Of a DNA stretch of 64,000 nt, positions 26,713 through 59,784 are shown one piece after another. The notes under the pieces are model-generated. The model was given only the letters and a program-made list of their open reading frames with translations, was not told where the DNA came from and did not search any database. The position numbers and the translations under genes are program-made. This DNA comes from Candidatus Hydrogenedentes bacterium UBA6118 (lineage in GTDB: Bacteria > Hydrogenedentota > Hydrogenedentia > Hydrogenedentales > SLHB01), in NCBI GenBank assembly GCA_002422525.1, contig DIWA01000077.1, positions 62,096 through 126,095 on the forward strand, written 5' to 3'. Each line of letters begins with the position of its first letter. Position 1 is the stretch's first letter.

Positions 26713-29328
26713 CTAACCGGCTCCCGCGGGCGACGGGGCGGCAAGGCGGAGGGAGACCTCGTGGGGCGCGAGGTCGAGGATGAAGCCGCGACGGGGCACG
26801 GTGCGGATGCAGTCGGCGCGCTGGGGCGCGGCGGCGCGGATCCGCCGCACAAGTTCGCCCTTCTGCACTTGGATCTGCGCCGGTTCGACCACGACGTCGG
26901 CCCAGAGTTCGTCGTAGATCTCGGCGTAGGATCGCATCTCGCCGGGACGCTGGGCGAGGAGTCGGATCAGGCGGTATTGCTTCTCCTGCAGCGGAATGTG
27001 CGCGCCGTCGAGTTCGATGCGGTCGGGCCGGGCGTCGTCGATGATCAGAACGGGTCGCGGTTCGGCGGGGGGCGCGTCGCATCGGGCGTCGGCTTGGGAT
27101 GCCGTGCGGCAGGCGCGCGCGGCCCACGCGATGAGGGCGCGGGCATCGTCCATGGCCAACCAACGGGCGAGGCGTTCGGGCGCGGCGGAGGCCAGGCGCT
27201 CGCGGGTGTCCAGGCGCTCGCGGGCGAGGGCGATCACGGCGCGACGGCTGAGGCGGGGGCGGCCGAGTCGCAGCAGGGGCAAATGGGCGGGGAGGGATCC
27301 CCGCGCGACCCGCTCGGCGAGTTCCGAAAGCCGGACGGCGAGGGCGTCGTCGGCGCCGCAGGCGTGCGCGATGCCCGCGGCGGCGTCGAGCAGCCAGGCG
27401 GCCTGCTGGGATGCGGCGAGGATCTGGCCGTGGAACACGCCGTAGCGCTCCTCGATGTCGAACACGGGGGTCTCGTCGATCCAATCGGCGAGGAGCAACG
27501 CGCCTTTGATCGCGCGGACTTCCTCGAAGAACGGCGCGGCCTTGCTGTCGCGGATGCGGTTGAGGGGGACGTCGCCGCGGTTCTCCGCGTCGGCGGCCTC
27601 CGCGCGCAAGCGGTTCGGGTAGTCGGCGTGCTCGTACTCGCGCACGGTGAGGGCGAGTTGCACGGCGCGTCCGTCGGGGGTGAGCAGGGCGGCGAGGAGG
27701 GGGTCGAGGGGGATCCAGTCGCGGGTCTCTGACTCGTGGATCCAGGCGGCGAGGTCGCGGGCGGTCGCGGGGGCGACGCCCTTGACGGCGGCGGTCCAGC
27801 CGAGGGGCGTGGCTTCGAGGCGGCCGGATGCGGCGACGGCGATCATGCCGAGATCCATGGCGCGGTGCACGGCGGCCTGGATGCGTTCCTCGATCTCGTC
27901 GGGCGTCAACGTGCGCGCCCAGACCCACCTGCCCGTCGGGGTGCGGCCGAGGAACCGGACGAGGTCGCCGAGGGTGCGACAGGCGTTCGAGGCGACCAGG
28001 CGCACGACATGGTCTTCGAGGGGGGCGCGGCCGAGTTGCGGTTCGGTGGGTTCGCGGTCGCCGTTCACGTAGCGTTGCCAGAGCGTGTCCTGGTCGAAGG
28101 GGGTCGGGGCGACGAGGATGGACCGTCCGAAGGGCTTGCCGGCGCCGAAGCGGCCGGCGCGTCCGCCCATGTTCTCGTACTCGCCGCGCAGGATGGGCGC
28201 TTTCCAGGGCGTGCCGAAGCGGGCGTCGTACTGCCACTTGTCGGCGGCGACGAAGACGTTCTGCGCGGGCAGGTTGAGCCCGGCGGCGAGGGTGCTGGTG
28301 GAGACGAGGATGCGGACCTCGCCGTCGCGGAACGCTTGCTCGACGACGTCGCGTTCCTCGGGGGCGAGATCGGCGTTGTGGAACGCGACGCCATGGGTCA
28401 TGAGGTCGGTGAGCAGGTCGCGGGCGTGGGTGGGTTCGAGCGTGCGGAGGCGTTCGAGGGCGCGGTCGGCGGCGGGCAAATCGATGCGGTCGGCGAGGCG
28501 TTGCGCGCCGAACCGCGATTCGTAGCGATCCTTCACGAAGATGAGGCAGGGTTCGCCGCGGTCAGCCAGAACCGCGGCGTTTTCGCGGATGACTTCCCAG
28601 GGCGACTCGGCGGGGCAGTCGACCATCGTCTCGGAGGCTTCGGCGAGGTCGTTGTAGCTGCGGTAGCGGAACTCGCCGTTGTGCAGCACGCCGTAGCGGA
28701 GGTCGACGGGGCGGCGGTCGAACTGGAGCAGCTCGGCCTGCATCCATTCGGCGAGCGCGTCGGCGTCGCCCAGCACGGCCGACATGCCGACGAGCCGTAC
28801 GCCCGCGTCGAGCAGGCGCGTCAGGACGATCTCGACGAGGGGGCCGCGTTCCGGGTCGGAGAGGATCTCGAGTTCGTCCGCGATGACAAGCTCGAGCTGG
28901 CGGATGCGTTCGGGGCGGCGCACGAGGAGTTGGGCGAGCTTCTCGTAGACGACCACGGCGAGGTCGAACTCGCCGCGTTCGAAGGCGGCGTCGAACTCGC
29001 GGTGGTCGCGGCTGGACACGAGCACGCGCAGGCCGTAGGGGGCGTACTTGCGCTGAAAGTCGGCCCACTTCTCCGCGGCGAGCGCCTTGAGGGGCACGAG
29101 GTAGACGGCCTTGCGGCGGCGGAGGGCGGCGTGGGCGGCGGCCATCTCGCCGACGAAGGTCTTGCCGGAGGTGGTGGGGGCCTGGATGAGCAGGTTGCCC
29201 TTGCCGAAGAGGCCGAACTTGCGTACGGCGCGTTCCTGAAGGGGCAGGAGCGTGTCGCTTTCCTCGGCGTTCCAGAGGCGGATGAGTTCCGCGGGCAACC
29301 CGAACTGGAGGAGTTCATGCATGTTCAT
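26713..29328 (-). CDS. Ski2/Hel308-like DExH helicase fused to C-terminal OmpR/PhoB-type winged-helix DNA-binding domain
   Basis: start MNMHELL after GGAGG; motif I APTTSGKT, motif II DELE, motif VI GRAGRFG; Hel308-like ratchet/HhH region; last about 100 aa match trans_reg_C (QEKQYRLIRLLAQRPGEMRSYAEIYDELW...VRRIR...IRTVPRRGFIL). Confidence 0.7.
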   Translation of the reverse strand: MNMHELLQFGLPAELIRLWNAEESDTLLPLQERAVRKFGLFGKGNLLIQAPTTSGKTFVGEMAAAHAALRRRKAVYLVPLKALAAEKWADFQRKYAPYGLRVLVSSRDHREFDAAFERGEFDLAVVVYEKLAQLLVRRPERIRQLELVIADELEILSDPERGPLVEIVLTRLLDAGVRLVGMSAVLGDADALAEWMQAELLQFDRRPVDLRYGVLHNGEFRYRSYNDLAEASETMVDCPAESPWEVIRENAAVLADRGEPCLIFVKDRYESRFGAQRLADRIDLPAADRALERLRTLEPTHARDLLTDLMTHGVAFHNADLAPEERDVVEQAFRDGEVRILVSTSTLAAGLNLPAQNVFVAADKWQYDARFGTPWKAPILRGEYENMGGRAGRFGAGKPFGRSILVAPTPFDQDTLWQRYVNGDREPTEPQLGRAPLEDHVVRLVASNACRTLGDLVRFLGRTPTGRWVWARTLTPDEIEERIQAAVHRAMDLGMIAVAASGRLEATPLGWTAAVKGVAPATARDLAAWIHESETRDWIPLDPLLAALLTPDGRAVQLALTVREYEHADYPNRLRAEAADAENRGDVPLNRIRDSKAAPFFEEVRAIKGALLLADWIDETPVFDIEERYGVFHGQILAASQQAAWLLDAAAGIAHACGADDALAVRLSELAERVARGSLPAHLPLLRLGRPRLSRRAVIALARERLDTRERLASAAPERLARWLAMDDARALIAWAARACRTASQADARCDAPPAEPRPVLIIDDARPDRIELDGAHIPLQEKQYRLIRLLAQRPGEMRSYAEIYDELWADVVVEPAQIQVQKGELVRRIRAAAPQRADCIRTVPRRGFILDLAPHEVSLRLAAPSPAGAG

Positions 29329-29359
29329 GGGGGGCCTCCTGGTCGACGGGGGCAGAATA

Positions 29360-29375
29360 CTGAATATATATTCAG
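29360..29375. promoter_or_regulatory. AT-rich perfect palindrome CTGAATATATATTCAG
   Basis: 16-bp perfect inverted repeat, 32 nt upstream of the helicase-wHTH start on the minus strand. Confidence 0.5.
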
Positions 29376-29485
29376 AAGTCAAGCGGAAAACGGCGGGAGT
29401 GGAAGACGGGCGTCGCGGAGATGGGAAACGCGCCCTCCCCTCGACGGGAGGAGAGGGCGCGCGGGAAGACAGGCGGACGAGCCGC

Positions 29486-40689: not shown

Positions 40690-40714
40690 CATGTTAAACC
40701 TTGCCTTTAACATG
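40690..40714. promoter_or_regulatory. AT-rich palindrome CATGTTAAA-N7-TTTAACATG upstream of fic
   Basis: perfect 9-bp arms; 38 nt upstream of Fic ATG at 40752. Confidence 0.45.
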
Positions 40715-40751
40715 GAGCCGGAATCCGCGTGTACTAAAGCGAGCGCAACGT

Positions 40752-41939
40752 ATGGAAGCAGGCAACGAGAGGGCGGCCCGCCGCGCGCGCGCCGGACGCT
40801 ATATCGAGCAGGTCGGCGGCTACCGCGCCTTCATCCCGAGTCCGCTGCCGCCCGACCCGCCGGTGGACCCGCGGGGGCTGCACGCCCTGCTCTCACGGGC
40901 TGACCGCGCCCTTGGACGGCTCGACGGGTCCATCTACACGCTCCCGAACCCCGACCTTTTCGTCGCCATGTATGTCCGTAAGGAGGCCGTCCTCTCGAGC
41001 CAGATCGAGGGGACTCAGAGTTCCCTCCAGGATGTCTTGGCTGCCGAGGCCAAGGTGCTGGACCCCGAGCGCCCCAGCGACGTGGACGAGGTGTTCAACT
41101 ACGTGGCCGCGATGAACTACGGCCTGGAGCGCCTGGCATCCTTGCCCCTATCCGTGCGCCTCATTCGCGAGATCCACGAGCGATTGCTGCGAGGCGTCCG
41201 AGGTTCCCACGCGACCCCCGGGGAGCTCCGCAACAGCCAGAACTGGATCGGCGCCAGCGGATGCACGCTCAGCGAAGCCGTCTTCGTCCCGCCTCCGCCT
41301 CACGAGGTCCCTAAGCTGCTTTCAGACCTTGAACGCTTTCTGCACCGCGAGACCGACTTGCCCCTGCTGGTCAAGATCGGCCTCGCGCACGCGCAGTTCG
41401 AGACGATCCACCCGTTCCTGGATGGCAACGGGCGAGTCGGTCGCCTGCTTATCACTTTCCTGCTCTGCAATGAGCACGTTTTGCAGAAGCCCGTCCTGTA
41501 TCTGTCGTGGTATTTCAAACGGCATCGCCAGGAGTACTACGACCGTCTCCAAGCGGTTCGCGATGATGGAGACTGGGAAGCCTGGATCGCCTTCTTCCTG
41601 CGAGGCGTCGCGGATGTCAGCGGACAGGCCACGGAGACGGCGCGCCGACTGCTGACCATGCGCGAGGAGCACCGCGACCGGGTGACCCAGTCCCTCGGCC
41701 GCGCCGCGGGGAACGGCCATCGCACCCTCGAGTATCTCTACGAACACCCGATTGTGACTGTCAATGACGTGAAGAGACTGGTCGGTTCCACCTATCCCGC
41801 AGCGAACGACCTGGTTGCTCGGTTGGTTGAGGAGGGGATTCTCAGCGAGATGACCGGCCAGAAGCGAAACCGACGGTTTGTCTACCGTGAGTACCTCGCT
41901 GTGTTCCACGACGGCGATTCGCAGGAGTCCCCGGATTAG
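40752..41939 (+). CDS. fic: Fic-family AMP-transferase (class II, N-terminal inhibitory motif) with C-terminal winged helix
   Basis: HPFLDGNGRVGR canonical Fic motif; SSQIEG fits the (S/T)xxxE(G/N) inhibitory helix motif; SoFic-like architecture. Confidence 0.85.
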   Translation: MEAGNERAARRARAGRYIEQVGGYRAFIPSPLPPDPPVDPRGLHALLSRADRALGRLDGSIYTLPNPDLFVAMYVRKEAVLSSQIEGTQSSLQDVLAAEAKVLDPERPSDVDEVFNYVAAMNYGLERLASLPLSVRLIREIHERLLRGVRGSHATPGELRNSQNWIGASGCTLSEAVFVPPPPHEVPKLLSDLERFLHRETDLPLLVKIGLAHAQFETIHPFLDGNGRVGRLLITFLLCNEHVLQKPVLYLSWYFKRHRQEYYDRLQAVRDDGDWEAWIAFFLRGVADVSGQATETARRLLTMREEHRDRVTQSLGRAAGNGHRTLEYLYEHPIVTVNDVKRLVGSTYPAANDLVARLVEEGILSEMTGQKRNRRFVYREYLAVFHDGDSQESPD

Positions 41940-52450: not shown

Positions 52451-52684
52451 ATGGCGATGCGCAAACGTCTGGTCAGACATGGGAACAGCCTGGCGCTGGT
52501 GATCGAGAAGCCGATTCTGGATCTGCTCGGCGTTGATGCGGAGACCGCGTCTGAGATCACAACCGATGGGCAGGCGCTGGTGTTGACGCCGGACCGCGAC
52601 CCGGAGCGCGGCGAGGCGTTTCGGTCGGCGCTGGAACAGGCGAACCGCACGTACGCCGAGGACTTGAAGCGGCTGGCGGAGTAG
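52451..52684 (+). CDS. AbrB/MazE/SpoVT-family antitoxin-like DNA-binding protein (orphan)
   Basis: 77 aa; VRHGNSLALVIEKPILDLLGV swapped-hairpin motif; followed only by a 13-codon ORF. Confidence 0.65.
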   Translation: MAMRKRLVRHGNSLALVIEKPILDLLGVDAETASEITTDGQALVLTPDRDPERGEAFRSALEQANRTYAEDLKRLAE

Positions 52685-54536: not shown

Positions 54537-54633
54537 GTCTCGATCCTCCCTCGTTGACCATCGCGATTCGACATTGTGCCACGAATGCCCCGCGATCGCC
54601 ACCCCGTTGAGTGAGAGGGGGGAGGGGGGGGGA

Positions 54634-54870
54634 TCAGAACCCCAGGTCGCCGTCCTCAATCCCAAGCGCGATCGCCACGGCCAGCGCGTTCCGGAGCATG
54701 AACGCGCCGTAGTTCCTCGCAAGCGCAACCAGATGCTCGGATGCGTCCGGCGTCCAGTCGCCGCCGTCCTGGAGCGCGCGCGTCAGGGATTCGGAATCAT
54801 CGGAGGCGATTCCGTCTAAGGTTGAACGATACTCCTCAACAAGCAGACCGACGTTTTCCATTGTCGCCAA
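54634..54870 (-). CDS. small acidic hypothetical protein
   Basis: 78 aa, 24-nt gap downstream of HNH gene on same strand; stop followed by C9 homopolymer on coding strand. Confidence 0.4.
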   Translation of the reverse strand: MATMENVGLLVEEYRSTLDGIASDDSESLTRALQDGGDWTPDASEHLVALARNYGAFMLRNALAVAIALGIEDGDLGF

Positions 54871-54893
54871 TGCTCATCCTCCTTCCCATGTGA

Positions 54894-55685
54894 TCACTCA
54901 CGGAAAACATTGGATTGATGCCACTCAAGGTAGCGTTGGTCCGGCAGAAATCTGTGCGGACGGATCACGGGCGCGTCGTGGTAAACGCAGATCAGATCCC
55001 GGATGCGTGTGTCCGCGCTGGCGCGCAACGATCCGCATATCGCGACCCTGAGTTCGGTGGTGAGGGTCAGCAGTCCGCGGTCAAAGAGCCGATCGAATGT
55101 CGCGCTCAGGCAGAGCCCGTTGCGCGGGTCCGTTCGGGACTGCTCCGAGACGCTCCAGGGAACAATGTGGCTCGCGACAAGAGCCTCGCGAACCCGAAGC
55201 CCCGTGACGCAGCAGGTCTGTTCGTAGCTGCTCAGGACGGCGTCTCTGAAGAACGCCTGGTGGATTCTGGCCTTCCGCGCGGCGATCTGTTCGGAAGGGC
55301 CCGTCGGGAGCGTCAGTTCTGAGCGCGACTCGCGACCCTGCCCTGCCGGAGCGCCCAATGCTTCGGGCAGTCTGCAGGCCTCGAGTGCGAGGCTGTTCCA
55401 GTCGTTGCTGAACGCGTCCCAGATCTCCGCATCCAGCTTGCTCGCATGAACGAGCCCGGAGACGCCGCGCTTCTGCAGCTCCGGGTCAAAGGCGCCGAAG
55501 TTGCCGAGTTTGCGGGCGACCCCGGCGGGCGACCGGCCGATGAGCTGCGCCAGGGAGACGACCCGCGGGTTGGTCGCCTTGGTTTGTCGGAAGGGGATCC
55601 GGCAGTAGAGATCCAACGCCAGGACCAATTCGTCTCGGGTCCAAGGAGCGCCGTAGTTCTTAGGATCAGGTTCAGATGTCGTCAT
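54894..55685 (-). CDS. HNH endonuclease family protein (HNH_2/PF13391-like; putative restriction or defence nuclease)
   Basis: C-terminal FRDAVLSSYEQTCCVTGLRVREALVASHIVPWS HNH core; N-terminal recognition-like domain. Confidence 0.65.
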   Translation of the reverse strand: MTTSEPDPKNYGAPWTRDELVLALDLYCRIPFRQTKATNPRVVSLAQLIGRSPAGVARKLGNFGAFDPELQKRGVSGLVHASKLDAEIWDAFSNDWNSLALEACRLPEALGAPAGQGRESRSELTLPTGPSEQIAARKARIHQAFFRDAVLSSYEQTCCVTGLRVREALVASHIVPWSVSEQSRTDPRNGLCLSATFDRLFDRGLLTLTTELRVAICGSLRASADTRIRDLICVYHDAPVIRPHRFLPDQRYLEWHQSNVFRE

Positions 55686-55729
55686 GGCGTCTTCATTCGC
55701 GTTCGACTAGACAAAAGTCGCCGGTTTTC

Positions 55730-55768
55730 TGATGGCATACTCCAGCATGGGGCGCGTTGTCCAGCAGG
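55730..55768. repeat. 39-bp direct repeat, copy 1 (TGATGGCATACTCCAGCATGGGGCGCGTTGTCCAGCAGG)
   Basis: identical to 59592-59630; lies 44 nt upstream of the HNH gene start and 87 nt downstream of gajB end. Confidence 0.9.
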
Positions 55769-55854
55769 TTGCGGCGCGGAGGAGCTGCGGTTTGTTCGCG
55801 GGAACGGGGGTGCGGCGGGGCGCTCCAGCCGACGTCGAAGCGATCAGCATCTGG

Positions 55855-57595
55855 TCACAGCTTATACTGGGAGAGAATCGGACAAGCAGGATAGGCCTCC
55901 CTCAGAACAAGCGTATGGACTCGCGCCCGCGTGATGGCGACACGCAGAATCTTACGGCTTCGCGGGTACGGCAGTGGGTCGTTCGGCCAAACGAGAGGTG
56001 AGGAATGTCGGCATCCAAAGATGATGACCGCATCGAATTGCTTGCCCTTTGATTTGTGTATAGTCATCACGTGAGTCCCCGTCAGGTCTTCCCCGCCCGA
56101 GAGGATCTGGTCCTCGGCTAACGCGGCGTCGAGTGCCCGGCGGGCCCCTAGGTATTGGCCGTGCTCTTCCCACAGCGAAGACAGGTTGGCTGCGATGCGC
56201 TTCCCCCGGTTGAAGGTGACAAGGTGTTCGACCTCACGGTCTACCGATAGGAGTTCGTCGACGTTCGTGCCACGCAGTATAGTTCTCATGTGCTCCCAGT
56301 CTTTTCGAGGGTTTCCGCTGAGTGGCGTGGTCCTGAGGTTTCGGACCAGTGCGTCCAGGCCCCTGTAGAGGGCTGCGGTGGTAGCTTTCCCCCCCCAGAC
56401 GAGTCTCGGACGCCCAATTCCGTAACTTCTCTGCACGCTCAAGAGAGGTCTTAGTGCCGTTGGCGCGGAACAGGGATGATAGCAGCTCCAAGGCCACCGC
56501 AAGATCTTCTGCTTCATTGCCCCGGATCTTCGGCTCCATCAGGAAGGCAACGAGTCGACTGGAGAGGAGCGTCTTCGAATCATCGAAGAGCACCTTGTGC
56601 GCTATGGGGTTAGGTGCTGCTCGCAACGCATTAGAGACGATCTTCGCGCCCCTGTCGAAACTAGTGAGGAAAGCAATGCTCTGCGGCGACTTTCCAGTAG
56701 CCTGCCTCACACGGGAGCACACGACTCCAACACTCTGCCTGATGCTGTGGTCGCGCTTGGCGGCTTCCGACTGAAACAAGAGCTGAGAGACTCCCGCATA
56801 GCCTCCCGGCCGACCTCTGGCAGCCAGAACGTCCGCCCCAAACGCAGCGATCTCGTTATCTGGACTGCGGTGATTCTCCGCGCCTAGATCCACGCGAACG
56901 GGCCTCAGGTCGGACTCGATCTGAGTAACCCGTTTCGGCCCAATTCCTGGAAGAAAATCGTAGATCTGTTGTTCTAGATCCGCGAGACATAGCAGTTGTG
57001 AGTGCTGAGCCAGCATCTTAACACACGTCCATTGCTCCGGTCCTGTATCTTGAGCTTCGTCGACAATAATCAGGGGATAATGCGCAGAAAGAATGCGCCG
57101 AATTCGCTCGCACCGGACTAACAGCTGTGCCGTTTTTGGCGCGAACAGGTCAAAAGCAGTCCGGCCTTCCTCTGCAAACAGTCGTTCGCGTTCTGTCGTC
57201 CAGTTGCGCCAGGCATCGGTCTTGCGCCGGGTAACGCCGCCCGACAGGGCCCGTTCATCGTGCGGGGCCAGAAGAGTGAGCCTCTTTGGAGCGCCAAGCA
57301 GATAGGCGTGAGTGCGCAGGATCTCCCAGAAGAAGGAGTGAAACGTCTGGATGGCGAGAAGCCCCTGATCCGCTCGTGGGATTCGCTCGCTAGCGGTTTC
57401 GGCGATTCGTGCAACGGCGGCGCGTGAGAAACTCAGGAAGAGCACCGCCTGACCCCTATTAAGGCCAGCTTCAATTCGATGCAGTGCCTTTAGAAGCGCA
57501 ATGGTCGTCTTGCCACTTCCGGGACCTCCCGTGACAAGGAGATGCCGTTGCTCGTGAAGTATCAGCTGGCGTTTTGGGCAGAGATCGAGCATCAC
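55855..57595 (-). pseudogene. gajB: GajB-like UvrD/Rep-family helicase, reading frame interrupted at G8 homopolymer
   Basis: ORF 56234-57595 has Walker A GGPGSGKT, motif II IIVDEAQD, motif III QQIYDF; ORF 55855-56517 in another frame carries the helicase C-terminal motifs (VMTIHKSKGKQFD, ITRAR); the two frames join at C8 run 56389-56396. Confidence 0.75.
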
Positions 57596-59430
57596 GCGTG
57601 AGGTCCCGCATCGGCCTGAAGTGTCCCATTTGTCTGGTCCTTGGTACCGGAATCATGCTCGAGAGCCCGTGGAATGGCAGCGGGTTCCGGCCTTGGGAAA
57701 TCGGCATAGACCTTCTGAAGGAAGCCCTTGATGCTCACAGGTAGTTCGGAATAGTGGCACATGTCAATGAGCCGTCCAGCGGTTCCGTCGCCCTTGCGAC
57801 CTTTCAGGAGGCGATGGCACAGGCCCTTCACGCTATCATCGTTTGGCCGTTGCGTTGGGATGCTGACGTTTCCCTGTTGACCGAGTTCCCGAATCTCATC
57901 CAGAAGCTGCCACTGACGGTCAATAGGCACCTCGGCAACGAGCAGAGCCTCCGCGCCCGGGTAATTGGTCTCATATGGCAAGTGGAAAGCGCCTTGCAGG
58001 TCTGTGGTCTCATCAGTGGATCGATGCTTCCTGTCGTAGAACGCGTAGGTCGAGAGGCCTAGGCTCTTGAAGAACTGGCCGAAGGCCGGTAGCGCCCCAT
58101 CGCCGTCCGAGGAGAACACCGTCACACCAGACAGATCCAGCGGATAGTACGCCTCATCCGCAGCCTCCATTTTCTCCGAGACGGCCCACAGGGCGATCTG
58201 TTCCGTGAGTCCTTCTGCGACGATAACTGCTCGGCCCAGCATAGCCTCGCAGAGACCTCGTCGCGCATGCTTACGGTAGGTCTTGGGCTTGATGGCTTCA
58301 CCAAGGAAGATCGGTGCTGCTATGAGACCAGCCTCGTCGGAACGCCGCAGGATCTGGATCTGCGAAGGCTCAAACTGCTCAATGACGTAGGGGGAGTGAG
58401 ATGTCACCAGACACTGGCTGGTTCTGTTTACCAGGTAGTTGACGATCCGCCTCTGCGTATGCGGCGGCAACGCAATCTCTGGCTCCTCCATGGCAAAGAT
58501 GACGTTGCTCCTCTTCAACTCGGCGACAAAGGAAAGGAGGGCTAGAACTAACGTGTTCAACGTGCCCGCCCCAACATGCTGAAACGGCACGGGTTCCTGG
58601 TCCGGAAACATGGTGAGAAAAAAGGACAACGTCTTGCGCAGATGCTCCCGCGTCAATTGTGAAACAAAGAGTTTGGCGCCCGATTCCTTACCTTGGGTGG
58701 GAATGTACTGACCAAGACGTTCCTGAAGAGACGCTAGTACTGGTTGCAGACCAACTGCGTCGTCGTCGATTGGCGGATCAAGGTCGTGCAGCCGCTCGAT
58801 GGTCTGTTCCCAGAGACCTGTCCGAATGCTTCCGAGGCGCAGAATGGTATCCAGAAGAGAACCCCGCTCAAGGCTGAGCGCCCGCGAGCCAGTTCGTAAC
58901 GCGCGCAAGTAGAGGAATCCGAACATGCGCTTGACGGTCCGGCTTACCACCTTTCGCTCGCCTTCCGGTGCGTCTGGGCTGTGGGAGAAGTAGGTCTTTG
59001 CCTCGAACTCATCTTCCTCCGGGTCGTATCTGCCAATGCTCTCCAGGCGGAGGCACGTCTCAACTTCCGATGCGTCCACCAGATCGGCCTCGCCCTCAGC
59101 CAAGAGGCGGTGCTCCGTGGTGTGCCAGAACTCAAGATGGGTACCGCAGGTGCTGGTGACTTCATCCGTGAGGCCGGTCAAGACAACCTCAACGCTAAGC
59201 CGCCGAGGCGTTTCCTGGTCCTCCTCAAGGTAGCGAGCGTTGTAGAAGTCAAACTCCTCGACTGGAGGGGACTTGGCAAGACGGTCAGGGCCGAGGACGA
59301 GGTCAAGAGCCTCGCAGACCGTGGATTTGCCCACGTTGTTTGTGCCGACGAGGAGAGCATGTCCACTGAAATGAAGAGTGGCATCAGCGATGCCTCGGTA
59401 GTTGGTGATCTTCAGTCGTGCGACACGCAT
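57592..59430 (-). CDS. gajA: GajA-like OLD-family ATP-dependent endonuclease (ABC ATPase + Toprim)
   Basis: N-terminus RLKITNYRGI...LLVGTNNVGKSTVCEAL (AAA_15/AAA_21); D-loop AMEEPEIALPP; C-terminal Toprim VIVAEGLTE and SSDGDG; 4-bp overlap with gajB. Confidence 0.8.
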   Translation of the reverse strand: MRVARLKITNYRGIADATLHFSGHALLVGTNNVGKSTVCEALDLVLGPDRLAKSPPVEEFDFYNARYLEEDQETPRRLSVEVVLTGLTDEVTSTCGTHLEFWHTTEHRLLAEGEADLVDASEVETCLRLESIGRYDPEEDEFEAKTYFSHSPDAPEGERKVVSRTVKRMFGFLYLRALRTGSRALSLERGSLLDTILRLGSIRTGLWEQTIERLHDLDPPIDDDAVGLQPVLASLQERLGQYIPTQGKESGAKLFVSQLTREHLRKTLSFFLTMFPDQEPVPFQHVGAGTLNTLVLALLSFVAELKRSNVIFAMEEPEIALPPHTQRRIVNYLVNRTSQCLVTSHSPYVIEQFEPSQIQILRRSDEAGLIAAPIFLGEAIKPKTYRKHARRGLCEAMLGRAVIVAEGLTEQIALWAVSEKMEAADEAYYPLDLSGVTVFSSDGDGALPAFGQFFKSLGLSTYAFYDRKHRSTDETTDLQGAFHLPYETNYPGAEALLVAEVPIDRQWQLLDEIRELGQQGNVSIPTQRPNDDSVKGLCHRLLKGRKGDGTAGRLIDMCHYSELPVSIKGFLQKVYADFPRPEPAAIPRALEHDSGTKDQTNGTLQADAGPHA

Positions 59431-59591
59431 CGGCTATGGCCTCCTACCTCCTCTCTCGGAATGCAGAGAGACGTCAGCGCCCCTATTGCCTGAACACGGA
59501 ACGGCAATGGCGAGGCGGATCTAGCCACGCTGTGCACCGGGTGTCAGTGGCACATGGGTAGCTGCTTGTCCGTCAACTCCAGGCGGTTCCT

Positions 59592-59630
59592 TGATGGCAT
59601 ACTCCAGCATGGGGCGCGTTGTCCAGCAGG
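59592..59630. repeat. 39-bp direct repeat, copy 2
   Basis: identical to 55730-55768; 161 nt upstream of gajA start. Confidence 0.9.
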
Positions 59631-59784
59631 GGCCAGTGCCTGGTTCCACGTCGATGTGCCGATCGTGCCGACCTCCGTGCTCGCCTTGTCGCTGCCGAGG
59701 CTGTGGTATGCTCGCGGGGAACGGCACGGGGGCTCTGTGGAGCACGGCGCCGGGCGGGGCGAACTGTGAGGAGGGGTTGCGCGG

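What the first reader, a model, noticed from the sequence alone, without database searches (positions are those of the whole stretch)
55855..59430. Gabija-like two-gene anti-phage module (GajA-like OLD ATPase/Toprim nuclease + GajB-like UvrD helicase)
A 612-aa protein pairs an OLD-family ABC-ATPase N-terminus (KITNYRGI...VGTNNVGKST) with a C-terminal Toprim domain (VIVAEGLTE, DGDG). It is followed, with a 4-bp overlap, by a UvrD/Rep-family helicase (GGPGSGKT, IIVDEAQD, VMTIHKSKGKQFD). This gene order and domain pairing defines Gabija (class 2 OLD systems). The locus sits in a region with other nuclease and toxin-antitoxin genes, typical of a defence island. Both proteins are somewhat longer than the Bacillus prototypes, so this may be a divergent variant.
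Basis: partly seen in the sequence, partly recalled or inferred. Interest (0 to 1): 0.7.

Follow-up and report, generated by a model that had tools for sequence, protein, structure and literature searches.

The report
Gabija defence locus with broken helicase
This is an ordinary two-gene Gabija anti-phage system carried on a small foreign DNA islet, but its helicase gene is interrupted by one extra G in a run of eight, so as written it should not protect the cell.

Summary
The Gabija call is right. The 612-aa ORF (57592-59430, minus strand) matches a curated GajA model end to end (PADLOC PDLC00086, E 1e-223). Its Walker A lysine, EEPE Walker B, H-loop, Toprim glutamate (E406, aligned to BcGajA E379) and DGDG motif are all present.

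GajB is split into a 453-aa ORF (56234-57595) and a 3' part in another frame (55855-56517). The break lies in a G8 run (56389-56396). Removing one G restores a 579-aa GajB with every helicase motif.

Four other public assemblies carry the same G8. A sister lineage (~90% DNA identity, same synteny) has an intact 572-aa GajB and no G run. dN/dS is 0.32 before and 0.30 after the break, and relative rates show no decay, so the lesion is recent. About 59 of 62 family loci have an intact gajB.

Published work shows GajB and its ATPase residues are required for defence. The locus is therefore most likely a recently switched-off Gabija. Reversible G-tract phase variation, as in Streptomyces pglX, is the more interesting minority reading.

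The "defence island" is only a ~5-kb low-GC islet of gajA, gajB, an HNH nuclease and a 78-aa ORF. Overall it is an ordinary member of a known kind and of low interest.

The parts
57592..59430 (-). gajA: an intact 612-aa OLD-family nuclease with an ABC-type ATPase and a C-terminal Toprim domain.
   Evidence: PADLOC GajA PDLC00086, E 1.4e-223, residues 1-595 against profile 1-592/600. Pfam AAA_15, AAA_21 and OLD-like_TOPRIM. K35, E315-E316-P317-E318, H345, E406-G407 and D442-G443-D444-G445 fall in invariant or near-invariant family columns. E406 aligns with BcGajA E379. The best structural neighbours of the (poor) AF2 model are GajA and TsOLD.
56234..57595 (-). gajB 5' reading frame (453 aa). 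About 400 residues are genuine GajB: the 1A/1B domains, motifs I, Ia, II and III, and part of 2A/2B. They are followed by a 52-aa out-of-frame tail ending at the stop at 56234.
   Evidence: PADLOC GajB PDLC00104, E 7.6e-131, residues 3-400 against profile 2-396/574. Pfam UvrD-helicase and AAA_19. Sequence read.
55855..56391 (-). gajB 3' part, in the +1 frame relative to the 5' part. It encodes the rest of the accessory domain and the second half of the 2A RecA core, with motif V (VMTIHKSKGKQFD) and motif VI (VAITRAR). The mechanical ORF runs 55855-56517.
   Evidence: PADLOC GajB PDLC00104, E 3.3e-49, residues 43-216 against profile 399-573/574. Pfam UvrD_C and UvrD_C_2.
56389..56396 (-). G8 homopolymer (C8 on the + strand) where the gajB frame breaks. 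Deleting one G gives an uninterrupted 579-aa GajB.
   Evidence: The same G8 is present in four other assemblies. The sister lineage reads CGTCTGGGAAAGAGA at this position.
59584..59630 (.). Direct repeat, copy 2, lying 154 nt upstream of the gajA start. Weaker similarity continues to about 59725, interrupted by a 54-nt indel.
   Evidence: A diverged copy is present in the sister lineage.
55722..55768 (.). Direct repeat, copy 1, between the gajB stop and the HNH start. 39 nt are identical to copy 2. Weaker similarity continues to about 55808.
   Evidence: No match is expected in shuffled sequence.
54894..55685 (-). Neighbouring HNH_2 nuclease gene (263 aa) within the same low-GC islet. It is not part of Gabija proper.
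   Evidence: PADLOC HNH PDLC04132, E 3.1e-79. Pfam HNH_2. The C-terminus resembles the PT-DNA restriction endonuclease NF045808 but scores below cutoff. The gene is deleted in sister lineage L081, which keeps only its first 8 codons.
54634..54870 (-). 78-aa acidic ORF of unknown function at the end of the islet. It is conserved in the sister lineage.
   Evidence: Gene calls. No Pfam or NCBIfam hit. dN/dS 0.18 against L081.

Best explanation
This is a genuine Gabija (class 2 OLD) cassette, acquired horizontally by an uncultured bacterium that is probably Candidatus Hydrogenedentota.

gajA is intact. It should make the ATP-regulated Toprim nuclease, which is known to form the tetrameric core of the complex.

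gajB carries a real one-nucleotide insertion (G7 to G8) at codon ~401. The encoded product keeps the N-terminal RecA core and the 1B domain that docks on GajA. It loses the second half of the 2A RecA core, which carries motifs V and VI, so it cannot act as an ATPase.

Both genes, and the GajB ATPase and DExx residues, are required for defence in the two Gabija systems studied experimentally. The locus as written is therefore predicted to be defence-inactive (OFF).

The lesion is very recent, because everything else in the gene is still under purifying selection.

Shown here: gene identities, the frameshift and its exact site, its reproducibility across assemblies, an intact orthologue in the sister lineage, and the selection statistics.

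Inferred: loss of function, and the idea that any residual full-length GajB could arise only from rare ribosomal or RNA-polymerase slippage on the G run.
For: Gene identity:
- GajA and GajB match curated PADLOC HMMs, with the split in GajB at profile positions 396/399.
- Pfam domains agree.
- The G8 site is read directly, and removing one base restores a 579-aa ORF.

Reproducibility:
- The sequence, including G8, is identical in ENA ERZ27315036 (a k141_-named contig, the MEGAHIT naming style), JGI 3300002498, JGI 3300001567 and Logan SRR5323146.

Comparison with relatives:
- Sister lineage L081 is 90-92% identical in DNA with the same synteny. Its GajB is intact at 572 aa and it has no G run.
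- Relatives L010 and L011 have intact 580-aa GajB with the same 4-nt overlap.
- 59 of about 62 metagenomic family loci have an intact gajB.

Selection:
- dN/dS against L081 is 0.21 for gajA, 0.32 for gajB before the frameshift and 0.30 after it.
- The relative-rate test gives 15 changes on the window branch against 17 on the L081 branch.

Literature:
- GajA-GajB contacts lie in the GajB 1B domain. GajA alone cuts DNA in vitro, but the complex is needed for defence (PMC10781630).
- Both proteins are essential in vivo (PMC10681800).
- In PA14, both genes plus the GajB ATPase and DExx residues are required (PMC12407980).

Foreign origin:
- GC is 0.53-0.62 against about 0.65-0.74 for the flanks. 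GC skew is near 0 against +0.2 to +0.4 on the URO-D/ATPase side (it is weaker, about 0.1, on the other flank). GC3 is 0.67 against about 0.83-0.94 for most host genes.
Against: - All five copies of the frameshifted allele probably come from one enrichment-culture population. 3300001567 is a 454+Illumina hybrid of a toluene-degrading culture, so independence is limited to sequencing runs and assemblers.
- No reads were inspected, so minority G7 alleles cannot be excluded.
- Loss of function is inferred from Bacillus and Pseudomonas Gabija systems that are only distantly related in sequence. The profile E-value to BcGajA is 1.7e-11, and to BcGajB only about 1e-4.
- A 144-aa C-terminal ORF with a GGAG close upstream of its ATG could in principle be made separately.
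Confidence: 0.72

Rival explanations
1. Phase-variable Gabija. The G tract is a contingency switch. Slipped-strand mispairing toggles gajB between G7 (ON) and G8 (OFF), and the sampled population happens to be OFF. This would let the lineage escape Gabija's costs or self-toxicity and regain defence at a high rate.
For: - A single-base slip restores a fully conserved ORF with no other lesion.
- The 3' part shows purifying selection equal to the 5' part.
- The tract is lineage-specific; the sister lineage has GGGAAAGAGA here.
- G/C runs of 8 or more are rare in this genome: 3 overlapping hits at 2 sites, against about 10 expected. Both sites lie in the islet.
- There is a direct precedent in a high-GC bacterium. 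The pglX G tract of the Streptomyces coelicolor Pgl/BREX system is ON at 8 G and OFF at 7 or 9 G, switching at 1e-2 to 1e-4 (PMC4365076).
- Gabija can be self-toxic when host RecBCD is impaired (PMC12407980).
Against: - Every assembly available shows G8.
- No in-frame G7 or G10 version of this protein exists in a 15-billion-protein collection, whereas the 452-aa truncated form is recorded from four sources.
- Other family members carry ordinary inactivating lesions unrelated to repeats: a TGG to TGA change in L008 and a non-homopolymer frameshift in L142. Plain decay therefore does occur.
- A G7/G8 tract is at the short end of hypermutable tracts.
- My literature search surfaced no report of Gabija phase variation.
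Confidence: 0.15
2. Sequencing or assembly artefact. The real gene has G7 and Gabija is intact.
For: - Homopolymer length is the classic 454 error, and at least one source assembly used 454 data.
- The gene is otherwise perfect.
Against: - G8 is identical in four further assemblies made with different assemblers and, by inference, different data. These include a contig with a MEGAHIT-style k141_ name (so probably Illumina-only) and a Logan assembly of a separate SRA run.
- Gene callers from NCBI, JGI, ENA and Logan all record the 452-aa product.
Confidence: 0.08
3. The frameshift is functional. Either programmed +1 recoding or transcriptional slippage on the G run gives regulated amounts of full-length GajB, or the two fragments are made separately and reassemble as a split helicase.
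For: - A +1 slip of tRNA-Gly on GGG-G would re-pair perfectly and give exactly the conserved sequence LGGKATT (inference).
- A 144-aa C-terminal ORF is called by gene finders.
Against: - The site is not conserved. The sister lineage and 59 of about 62 family members encode a single ORF.
- No stimulatory element is evident, and there is no Rfam hit.
- The split falls inside a RecA core domain.
Confidence: 0.04

Closest known systems
Bacillus cereus VD045 Gabija (GajA/GajB; PDB 8SM3, 8J4T, 8JQ9, 8U7I)
   Same: - The gene order is the same, gajA then gajB, with overlapping reading frames.
- GajA has an ABC ATPase plus Toprim domain, with the Walker A Lys35 and the Toprim Glu (E406 here, E379 in Bc) aligned.
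- GajB is an SF1 UvrD-like protein.
- GajA structures are the best structural neighbours of the model.
   Different: - Sequence similarity is low: about 12-13% identity in the structural alignment, profile E 1.7e-11 for GajA and about 1e-4 for GajB.
- The proteins are longer here: 612 against 578 aa, and a restored 579 against 494 aa.
- Here gajB is frameshifted.
PADLOC Gabija subfamily PDLC00086 (GajA) / PDLC00104 (GajB)
   Same: Both proteins match full length, at E 1e-223 and, for the two GajB pieces, E 1e-131 and 1e-49. Thousands of homologues of the same size occur across Bacillota, Pseudomonadota, Verrucomicrobiota and other phyla. Two of the three relatives' neighbourhoods examined (L008, L010) also carry other defence genes.
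   Different: The window copy has the G8 frameshift, whereas about 95% of sampled members are intact.
Pseudomonas aeruginosa PA14 Gabija
   Same: [quoted passage not shown] It provides experimental proof that GajB and its ATPase and DExx residues are needed, and that native upstream DNA regulates expression.
   Different: Whether it belongs to the same sequence subfamily was not tested. Its motif II is reported as DESQ, against DEAQD here.
Class 2 OLD nucleases (Xanthomonas and Burkholderia OLD; PDB 6NJV) and class 1 TsOLD (6P74)
   Same: They share the OLD ATPase plus Toprim architecture. 6P74 and 6NJV both appear among the structural and sequence hits.
   Different: Class 1 proteins stand alone. 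Here the helicase partner defines class 2 / Gabija.
pglX G-tract phase variation in the Streptomyces coelicolor Pgl (BREX type 2) system
   Same: It involves an 8-nt G run inside a defence gene of a high-GC bacterium, and a change of one G switches the system off.
   Different: It is a different defence system. In pglX, 8 G is ON, whereas here 8 G is OFF. Switching has been demonstrated experimentally there and was not observed here.

Membership tests
Gabija | GajA has an N-terminal ABC-type ATPase with Walker A, Walker B and H-loop. | tested here: met
   Pfam AAA_15 and AAA_21. G29-x-N-N-V-G-K35-S-T, E315-E316-P317-E318 and H345 fall in invariant or near-invariant family columns. They align to the BcGajA N-terminus and to its Walker B and H-loop.
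Gabija | GajA has a C-terminal Toprim nuclease domain with the catalytic Glu and a DxD motif. | tested here: met
   PF20469 OLD-like_TOPRIM scores 29.1 bits against a 23.2-bit cutoff. E406 aligns with BcGajA E379. D442-G-D444-G is conserved.
Gabija | Both genes match curated Gabija HMMs. | tested here: met
   PDLC00086 GajA, E 1.4e-223. PDLC00104 GajB, E 7.6e-131 (5' ORF) and 3.3e-49 (3' ORF).
Gabija | gajB lies immediately downstream on the same strand and is translationally coupled. | tested here: met
   GTGA overlap at 57592-57595. Relatives have the same arrangement.
Gabija | GajB is a single SF1 helicase-like polypeptide carrying motifs I-VI. | tested here: not met
   Motifs I-III and motifs V-VI are in different frames, with the break at the G8 run 56389-56396. 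The motifs themselves are all preserved.
Gabija | The proteins form a GajA4:GajB4 complex through the GajB 1B domain. | not testable with these tools
   Known only from BcGajAB structures. The 1B-equivalent region lies upstream of the frameshift, which is an inference.
Gabija | The system confers anti-phage protection. | not testable with these tools
   This needs an experiment. The literature predicts loss of protection when GajB is defective.
OLD family, class 2 | An OLD nuclease gene sits in tandem with a UvrD/PcrA/Rep-like helicase gene. | tested here: met
   The GajB profile hits PcrA, UvrD and Rep at E 1e-15 to 1e-13.
Phase-variable contingency locus | A homopolymer tract lies inside the ORF, and changes in its length switch the frame. 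| tested here: met
   A G8 run is present, and G7 restores the frame.
Phase-variable contingency locus | Tract-length polymorphism (both ON and OFF alleles) is seen in populations. | tested here: not met
   All five copies (the window and four other assemblies) are G8. No ON-form protein is present in the public collection. Only consensus assemblies were examined, not reads.
Programmed ribosomal frameshift | The frameshift site is conserved among homologues. | tested here: not met
   The sister lineage and 59 of about 62 family loci encode one ORF.

The most novel reading that the evidence does not exclude
The G7/G8 tract in gajB is a selected contingency switch that makes Gabija phase-variable in this Hydrogenedentota-like lineage. 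It would be a non-R-M, non-BREX defence system turned on and off by slipped-strand mispairing. It may be linked to the reciprocal pattern in the sister lineage, where gajB is intact and the neighbouring HNH nuclease is deleted.
Probability: 0.13. Interest if true: 0.55.

Novelty: new member of a known kind. Interest (0 to 1): 0.22.

Why it matters
Mostly it does not. Gabija is one of the commonest defence systems, and this copy belongs to a large subfamily that existing HMMs already cover.

It has two modest uses. First, it shows that motif-level reading, and HMM callers that accept fragments, can score a defence system as present when one essential gene is frameshifted. That inflates defence-repertoire counts in MAGs. 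Second, the clean one-base lesion in a G run, with an intact orthologue in a sister lineage, gives a testable case. Either Gabija is being lost under relaxed phage pressure in a long-term enrichment culture, or it is being toggled by phase variation.

Tried and rejected
1. Empty-site search. Exact look-ups of the URO-D neighbour found only contigs with the same arrangement. A GTDB-wide scan with URO-D gave 69 loci at 77% identity or less, and none shared synteny. No pre-insertion site could be recovered.

2. Circular excised form. I considered whether the 3883-nt Logan contig L004, which ends inside the two direct repeats, was a circle. I rejected this. Its ends fall exactly where k=31 k-mers become non-unique at a 39-nt repeat.

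3. HNH insertion. I first read the HNH gene as an insertion in the window lineage. I rejected this because L081 retains the HNH upstream region, its ATG and its first 8 codons, so HNH was deleted there.

4. Function of the direct repeat. The promoter scan found no sigma-70-like site in 54.5-60 kb. Rfam found nothing. The repeat's function remains unassigned.

5. Are flanking repeats a family feature? They appear in only 2 of 61 loci, and the repeat sequences are unrelated.

6. AF2 model of GajA. A 14-sequence alignment gave a poor model (pLDDT 62.8, with residues 178-347 below 50). The fold search ranks GajA and OLD first, but TM-scores are only about 0.26-0.34. I use it only as weak support.

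7. ON-allele look-up. Exact look-ups of the G7 and G10 restored proteins found neither in the collection.

8. RecF or ABC-transporter identity. This is rejected. One homologue is mis-annotated as RecF at NCBI.
Full report
**Observation**

The region 55855-59430 contains three minus-strand reading frames, not two:
- a 612-aa ORF at 57592-59430;
- a 453-aa ORF at 56234-57595;
- a 220-aa ORF at 55855-56517, which overlaps the previous one in another frame.

However, GGPGSGKT and IIVDEAQD lie in the 453-aa ORF, while VMTIHKSKGKQFD lies in the 220-aa ORF. The gajA stop and the gajB start overlap as GCGTGATG: a GTG start gives a 4-nt overlap, or an ATG gives a 1-nt overlap.

**Identity of the genes**

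The 612-aa protein matches PADLOC GajA model PDLC00086 over its whole length (E 1.4e-223, residues 1-595 against profile 1-592/600). It matches many other GajA models more weakly.

Pfam gives AAA_15, AAA_21 and OLD-like_TOPRIM, all above their cutoffs.

In an alignment with 13 homologues, all the catalytic positions are conserved:
- Walker A, G29..K35-S-T;
- Walker B, E315-E316-P317-E318;
- H-loop, H345;
- Toprim, E406-G407;
- D442-G-D444-G.

A profile of that alignment finds B. cereus GajA structures (8JQ9, 8SM3, 8J4T, 8U7I) at E about 1e-11. It aligns E406 to BcGajA E379, the nuclease active-site residue mutated in the literature.

An AF2 model was poor (pLDDT 62.8). Its best Foldseek hits are nevertheless GajA chains and T. 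scotoductus OLD, at E 5e-13 but with TM only about 0.26-0.34. I treat this as weak support.

The two helicase ORFs match PADLOC GajB model PDLC00104 consecutively. The 453-aa ORF covers profile positions 2-396 (E 7.6e-131) and the 220-aa ORF covers positions 399-573 (E 3.3e-49). Pfam gives UvrD-helicase and AAA_19 for the first, and UvrD_C and UvrD_C_2 for the second.

**The frameshift**

The two frames meet at CGTCTGGGGGGGGAAAGCT, a G8 run on the minus strand at window 56389-56396. Deleting one G yields an uninterrupted 579-aa protein that reads ...TRLGGKATTAALY... through the site. It aligns without gaps there to intact GajB proteins of relatives, such as ...TRNGKIPSKAGLY....

As encoded, the product has about 400 native residues plus a 52-residue out-of-frame tail.

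Using the BcGajB domain map (Ncore 1-72 and 156-222, Nacc/1B 73-155, Ccore 223-313 and 417-494, Cacc 314-416; PMC10681800) and the PcrA alignment, the break falls before the second half of the 2A RecA core, which carries motifs V and VI. The 1B domain, which mediates GajA binding in BcGajAB (PMC10781630), lies upstream of the break. This placement is an inference from alignment, not a structure.

**Is the frameshift real?**

The same 7 kb, including G8, is 100% identical in four other public assemblies:
- ENA ERZ27315036, a contig named k141_... in the MEGAHIT style;
- JGI 3300002498;
- JGI 3300001567;
- Logan SRR5323146.

JGI 3300001567 is a 454+Illumina hybrid assembly of a methanogenic toluene-degrading enrichment from Alberta (PMC5029510). 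These assemblies therefore probably sample one population, but with different data and assemblers. The contig naming suggests that at least one of them is Illumina-only.

The truncated 452-aa product is on record from NCBI, JGI, ENA and Logan. The restored G7 or G10 proteins are not in the 15-billion-protein collection. I put a sequencing artefact at about 8%.

**How old is it?**

A sister lineage (L081, Logan SRR19237660) has these properties:
- It is 90-92% identical in DNA across 14 kb.
- It has the same gene order: URO-D, gajA, gajB, orf78, pectate-lyase-fold gene, TetR and so on.
- Its GajA is 92% identical.
- Its GajB is intact at 572 aa.
- It reads CGTCTGGGAAAGAGA where the window has the G run.

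Pairwise dN/dS values against L081:

| Gene | dN/dS |
|---|---|
| URO-D | 0.16 |
| pectate-lyase-fold gene | 0.15 |
| gajA | 0.21 |
| gajB, upstream of the break | 0.32 |
| gajB, downstream of the break | 0.30 |

With three outgroups, the window branch of GajB carries 15 unique amino-acid changes against 17 on the L081 branch. Only 3 of the 15 lie after the break. There is no sign of neutral decay, so the insertion is recent relative to a divergence of dS about 0.2.

**How unusual is it?**

Relatives L010 and L011 (69% GajA identity) have intact 580-aa GajB.

The closest non-sister relative, L008/L009 (73%), has a TGG to TGA nonsense codon at the conserved FHSFFW motif.

Among 80 metagenomic loci of this GajA subfamily, about 62 cover the whole gajB region. 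Of those:
- 59 are intact;
- one (L142) is frameshifted near residue 390, without a homopolymer;
- one (L125) is truncated.

A broken gajB beside an intact gajA is therefore a minority state (roughly 5%), and it recurs by ordinary mutations.

**Functional consequence (inferred)**

- GajA alone cleaves DNA in vitro, but disrupting the GajA-GajB interface abolishes defence (PMC10781630).
- Both proteins are essential in vivo (PMC10681800).
- In P. aeruginosa PA14, both genes and the GajB ATPase and DExx residues are required (PMC12407980).

A GajB lacking motifs V and VI should therefore leave the system inactive. It may still dock on GajA through the 1B domain. Residual full-length protein could arise only from rare +1 slippage of tRNA-Gly on GGG-G, or from polymerase slippage. 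This is speculation.

**Phase variation as the interesting alternative**

A one-base slip restores a perfect gene. The tract is lineage-specific. G/C runs of 8 or more are depleted in this window: 3 overlapping hits at two sites, against about 10 expected from shuffles. Both sites lie in the islet.

The S. coelicolor Pgl/BREX gene pglX is switched by exactly such a G tract (8 G ON, 7 or 9 G OFF), at 1e-2 to 1e-4 (PMC4365076).

Against this reading:
- no ON allele is seen anywhere;
- non-repeat lesions occur in relatives;
- my literature search surfaced no report of Gabija phase variation.

I give it about 0.13-0.15.

**Context**

GC falls from about 0.65-0.74 to 0.53-0.62. GC skew falls from +0.2 to +0.4 (the URO-D/ATPase side) to about 0 between roughly 54.6 and 59.6 kb. 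GC3 is 0.67 for gajA and gajB and 0.77 for HNH, against about 0.83-0.94 for most host genes.

The islet holds gajA, gajB, an HNH_2 nuclease and a 78-aa ORF with no family match:
- The HNH protein matches PADLOC HNH PDLC04132 at E 3e-79.
- Its C-terminus resembles PT-DNA restriction endonucleases, but scores below cutoff.

The flanks are URO-D and a P-type ATPase on one side. On the other are a pectate-lyase-fold protein, a lone 77-aa ORF with a sub-threshold antitoxin hit (E 0.02), TetR and an ABC efflux set. This is not a rich defence island.

L081 lacks the HNH gene but keeps its upstream region and first 8 codons, so HNH was deleted there. The two lineages thus show reciprocal losses: gajB in one and HNH in the other. 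With only two lineages, no conclusion is drawn from that.

gajAB is bracketed by a direct repeat at 55722-55768 and 59584-59630. It has 39 identical nt, and extends to about 90 nt with an indel. The repeat is also present, in diverged form, in L081.

Only one other of 61 family loci (L147) has such flanking repeats, and their sequence is unrelated. The repeats are therefore host-site derived. They may be an insertion-associated duplication or a shared upstream element of gajA and HNH. No promoter or RNA family was detected.

**Host**

No rRNA or other RNA gene is present. The best named SmpB homologues (70-74% identity) are Candidatus Hydrogenedentota MAGs. GTDB representative genomes contain no syntenic relative.

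**Verdict**

This is a correctly recognised Gabija locus belonging to a large, already-modelled subfamily. It is not a novel variant. Interest is low (0.22), with a modest chance that the tract is a phase-variation switch.

Noticed in passing
window 54890-55660 versus L081 6573-6580: The sister lineage L081 has an intact gajB but has lost the HNH nuclease gene, keeping only its upstream region and first 8 codons. The window lineage keeps HNH but has a frameshifted gajB. These are reciprocal losses within one 5-kb islet.
   Followed up: partly
window 55722-55808 and 59584-59725: A direct repeat brackets gajAB exactly, with 39 nt identical and about 90 nt including a 54-nt indel. Both copies lie upstream of minus-strand genes (gajA and HNH). 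The two copies are identical in the window but differ at 5 of 38 positions in L081, which hints at gene conversion or constraint. Its function is unknown.
   Followed up: partly
L147 659-701 and 4630-4672: An unrelated Gabija locus of the same subfamily is also bracketed by a 43-nt direct repeat (97.7% identical). The upstream copy lies inside the 3' end of a neighbouring ORF. This suggests that cassette insertion can duplicate about 40 nt of target sequence. It was the only other case among 61 loci.
   Followed up: partly
window 54624-54632: A G9 run on the + strand (C9 on the gene strand) lies immediately after the orf78 stop codon. It and the gajB tract are the only G/C runs of 8 nt or more in the 64-kb window.
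   Followed up: no
L008 8105-8107 (also L009): The closest non-sister relative (GajA 73% identical, GCA_041643115.1) has a TGG to TGA nonsense codon in gajB at the conserved FHSFFW motif, while its gajA is intact. L142 has a gajB frameshift near residue 390 with no homopolymer.
   Followed up: yes
whole window, 1-64000: There is a strong positive GC skew on the + strand (about +0.15 to +0.3, cumulative 10.8), apparently largely independent of gene orientation. It is interrupted in a few stretches (about 3-7 kb, 40-43 kb and the last 2 kb), with the longest interruption at about 53-59.6 kb.
   Followed up: no
protein P0004: A 72%-identical GajA homologue from Pelotomaculum sp. FP is annotated at NCBI as 'DNA replication and repair protein RecF'. 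This is a misannotation of an OLD/GajA protein.
   Followed up: no
window 52451-52684 (+): A lone 77-aa ORF has an AbrB/MazE-like N-terminus and a sub-threshold 'doc_partner' antitoxin hit (E 0.02). There is no adjacent toxin gene.
   Followed up: partly
window 40701-41939 (+) and 26713-29382 (-): A Fic/DOC-family protein with a Fic_N domain, and an 889-aa DEAD-box helicase fused to a C-terminal OmpR-type Trans_reg_C DNA-binding domain. Neither is near the Gabija islet.
   Followed up: no
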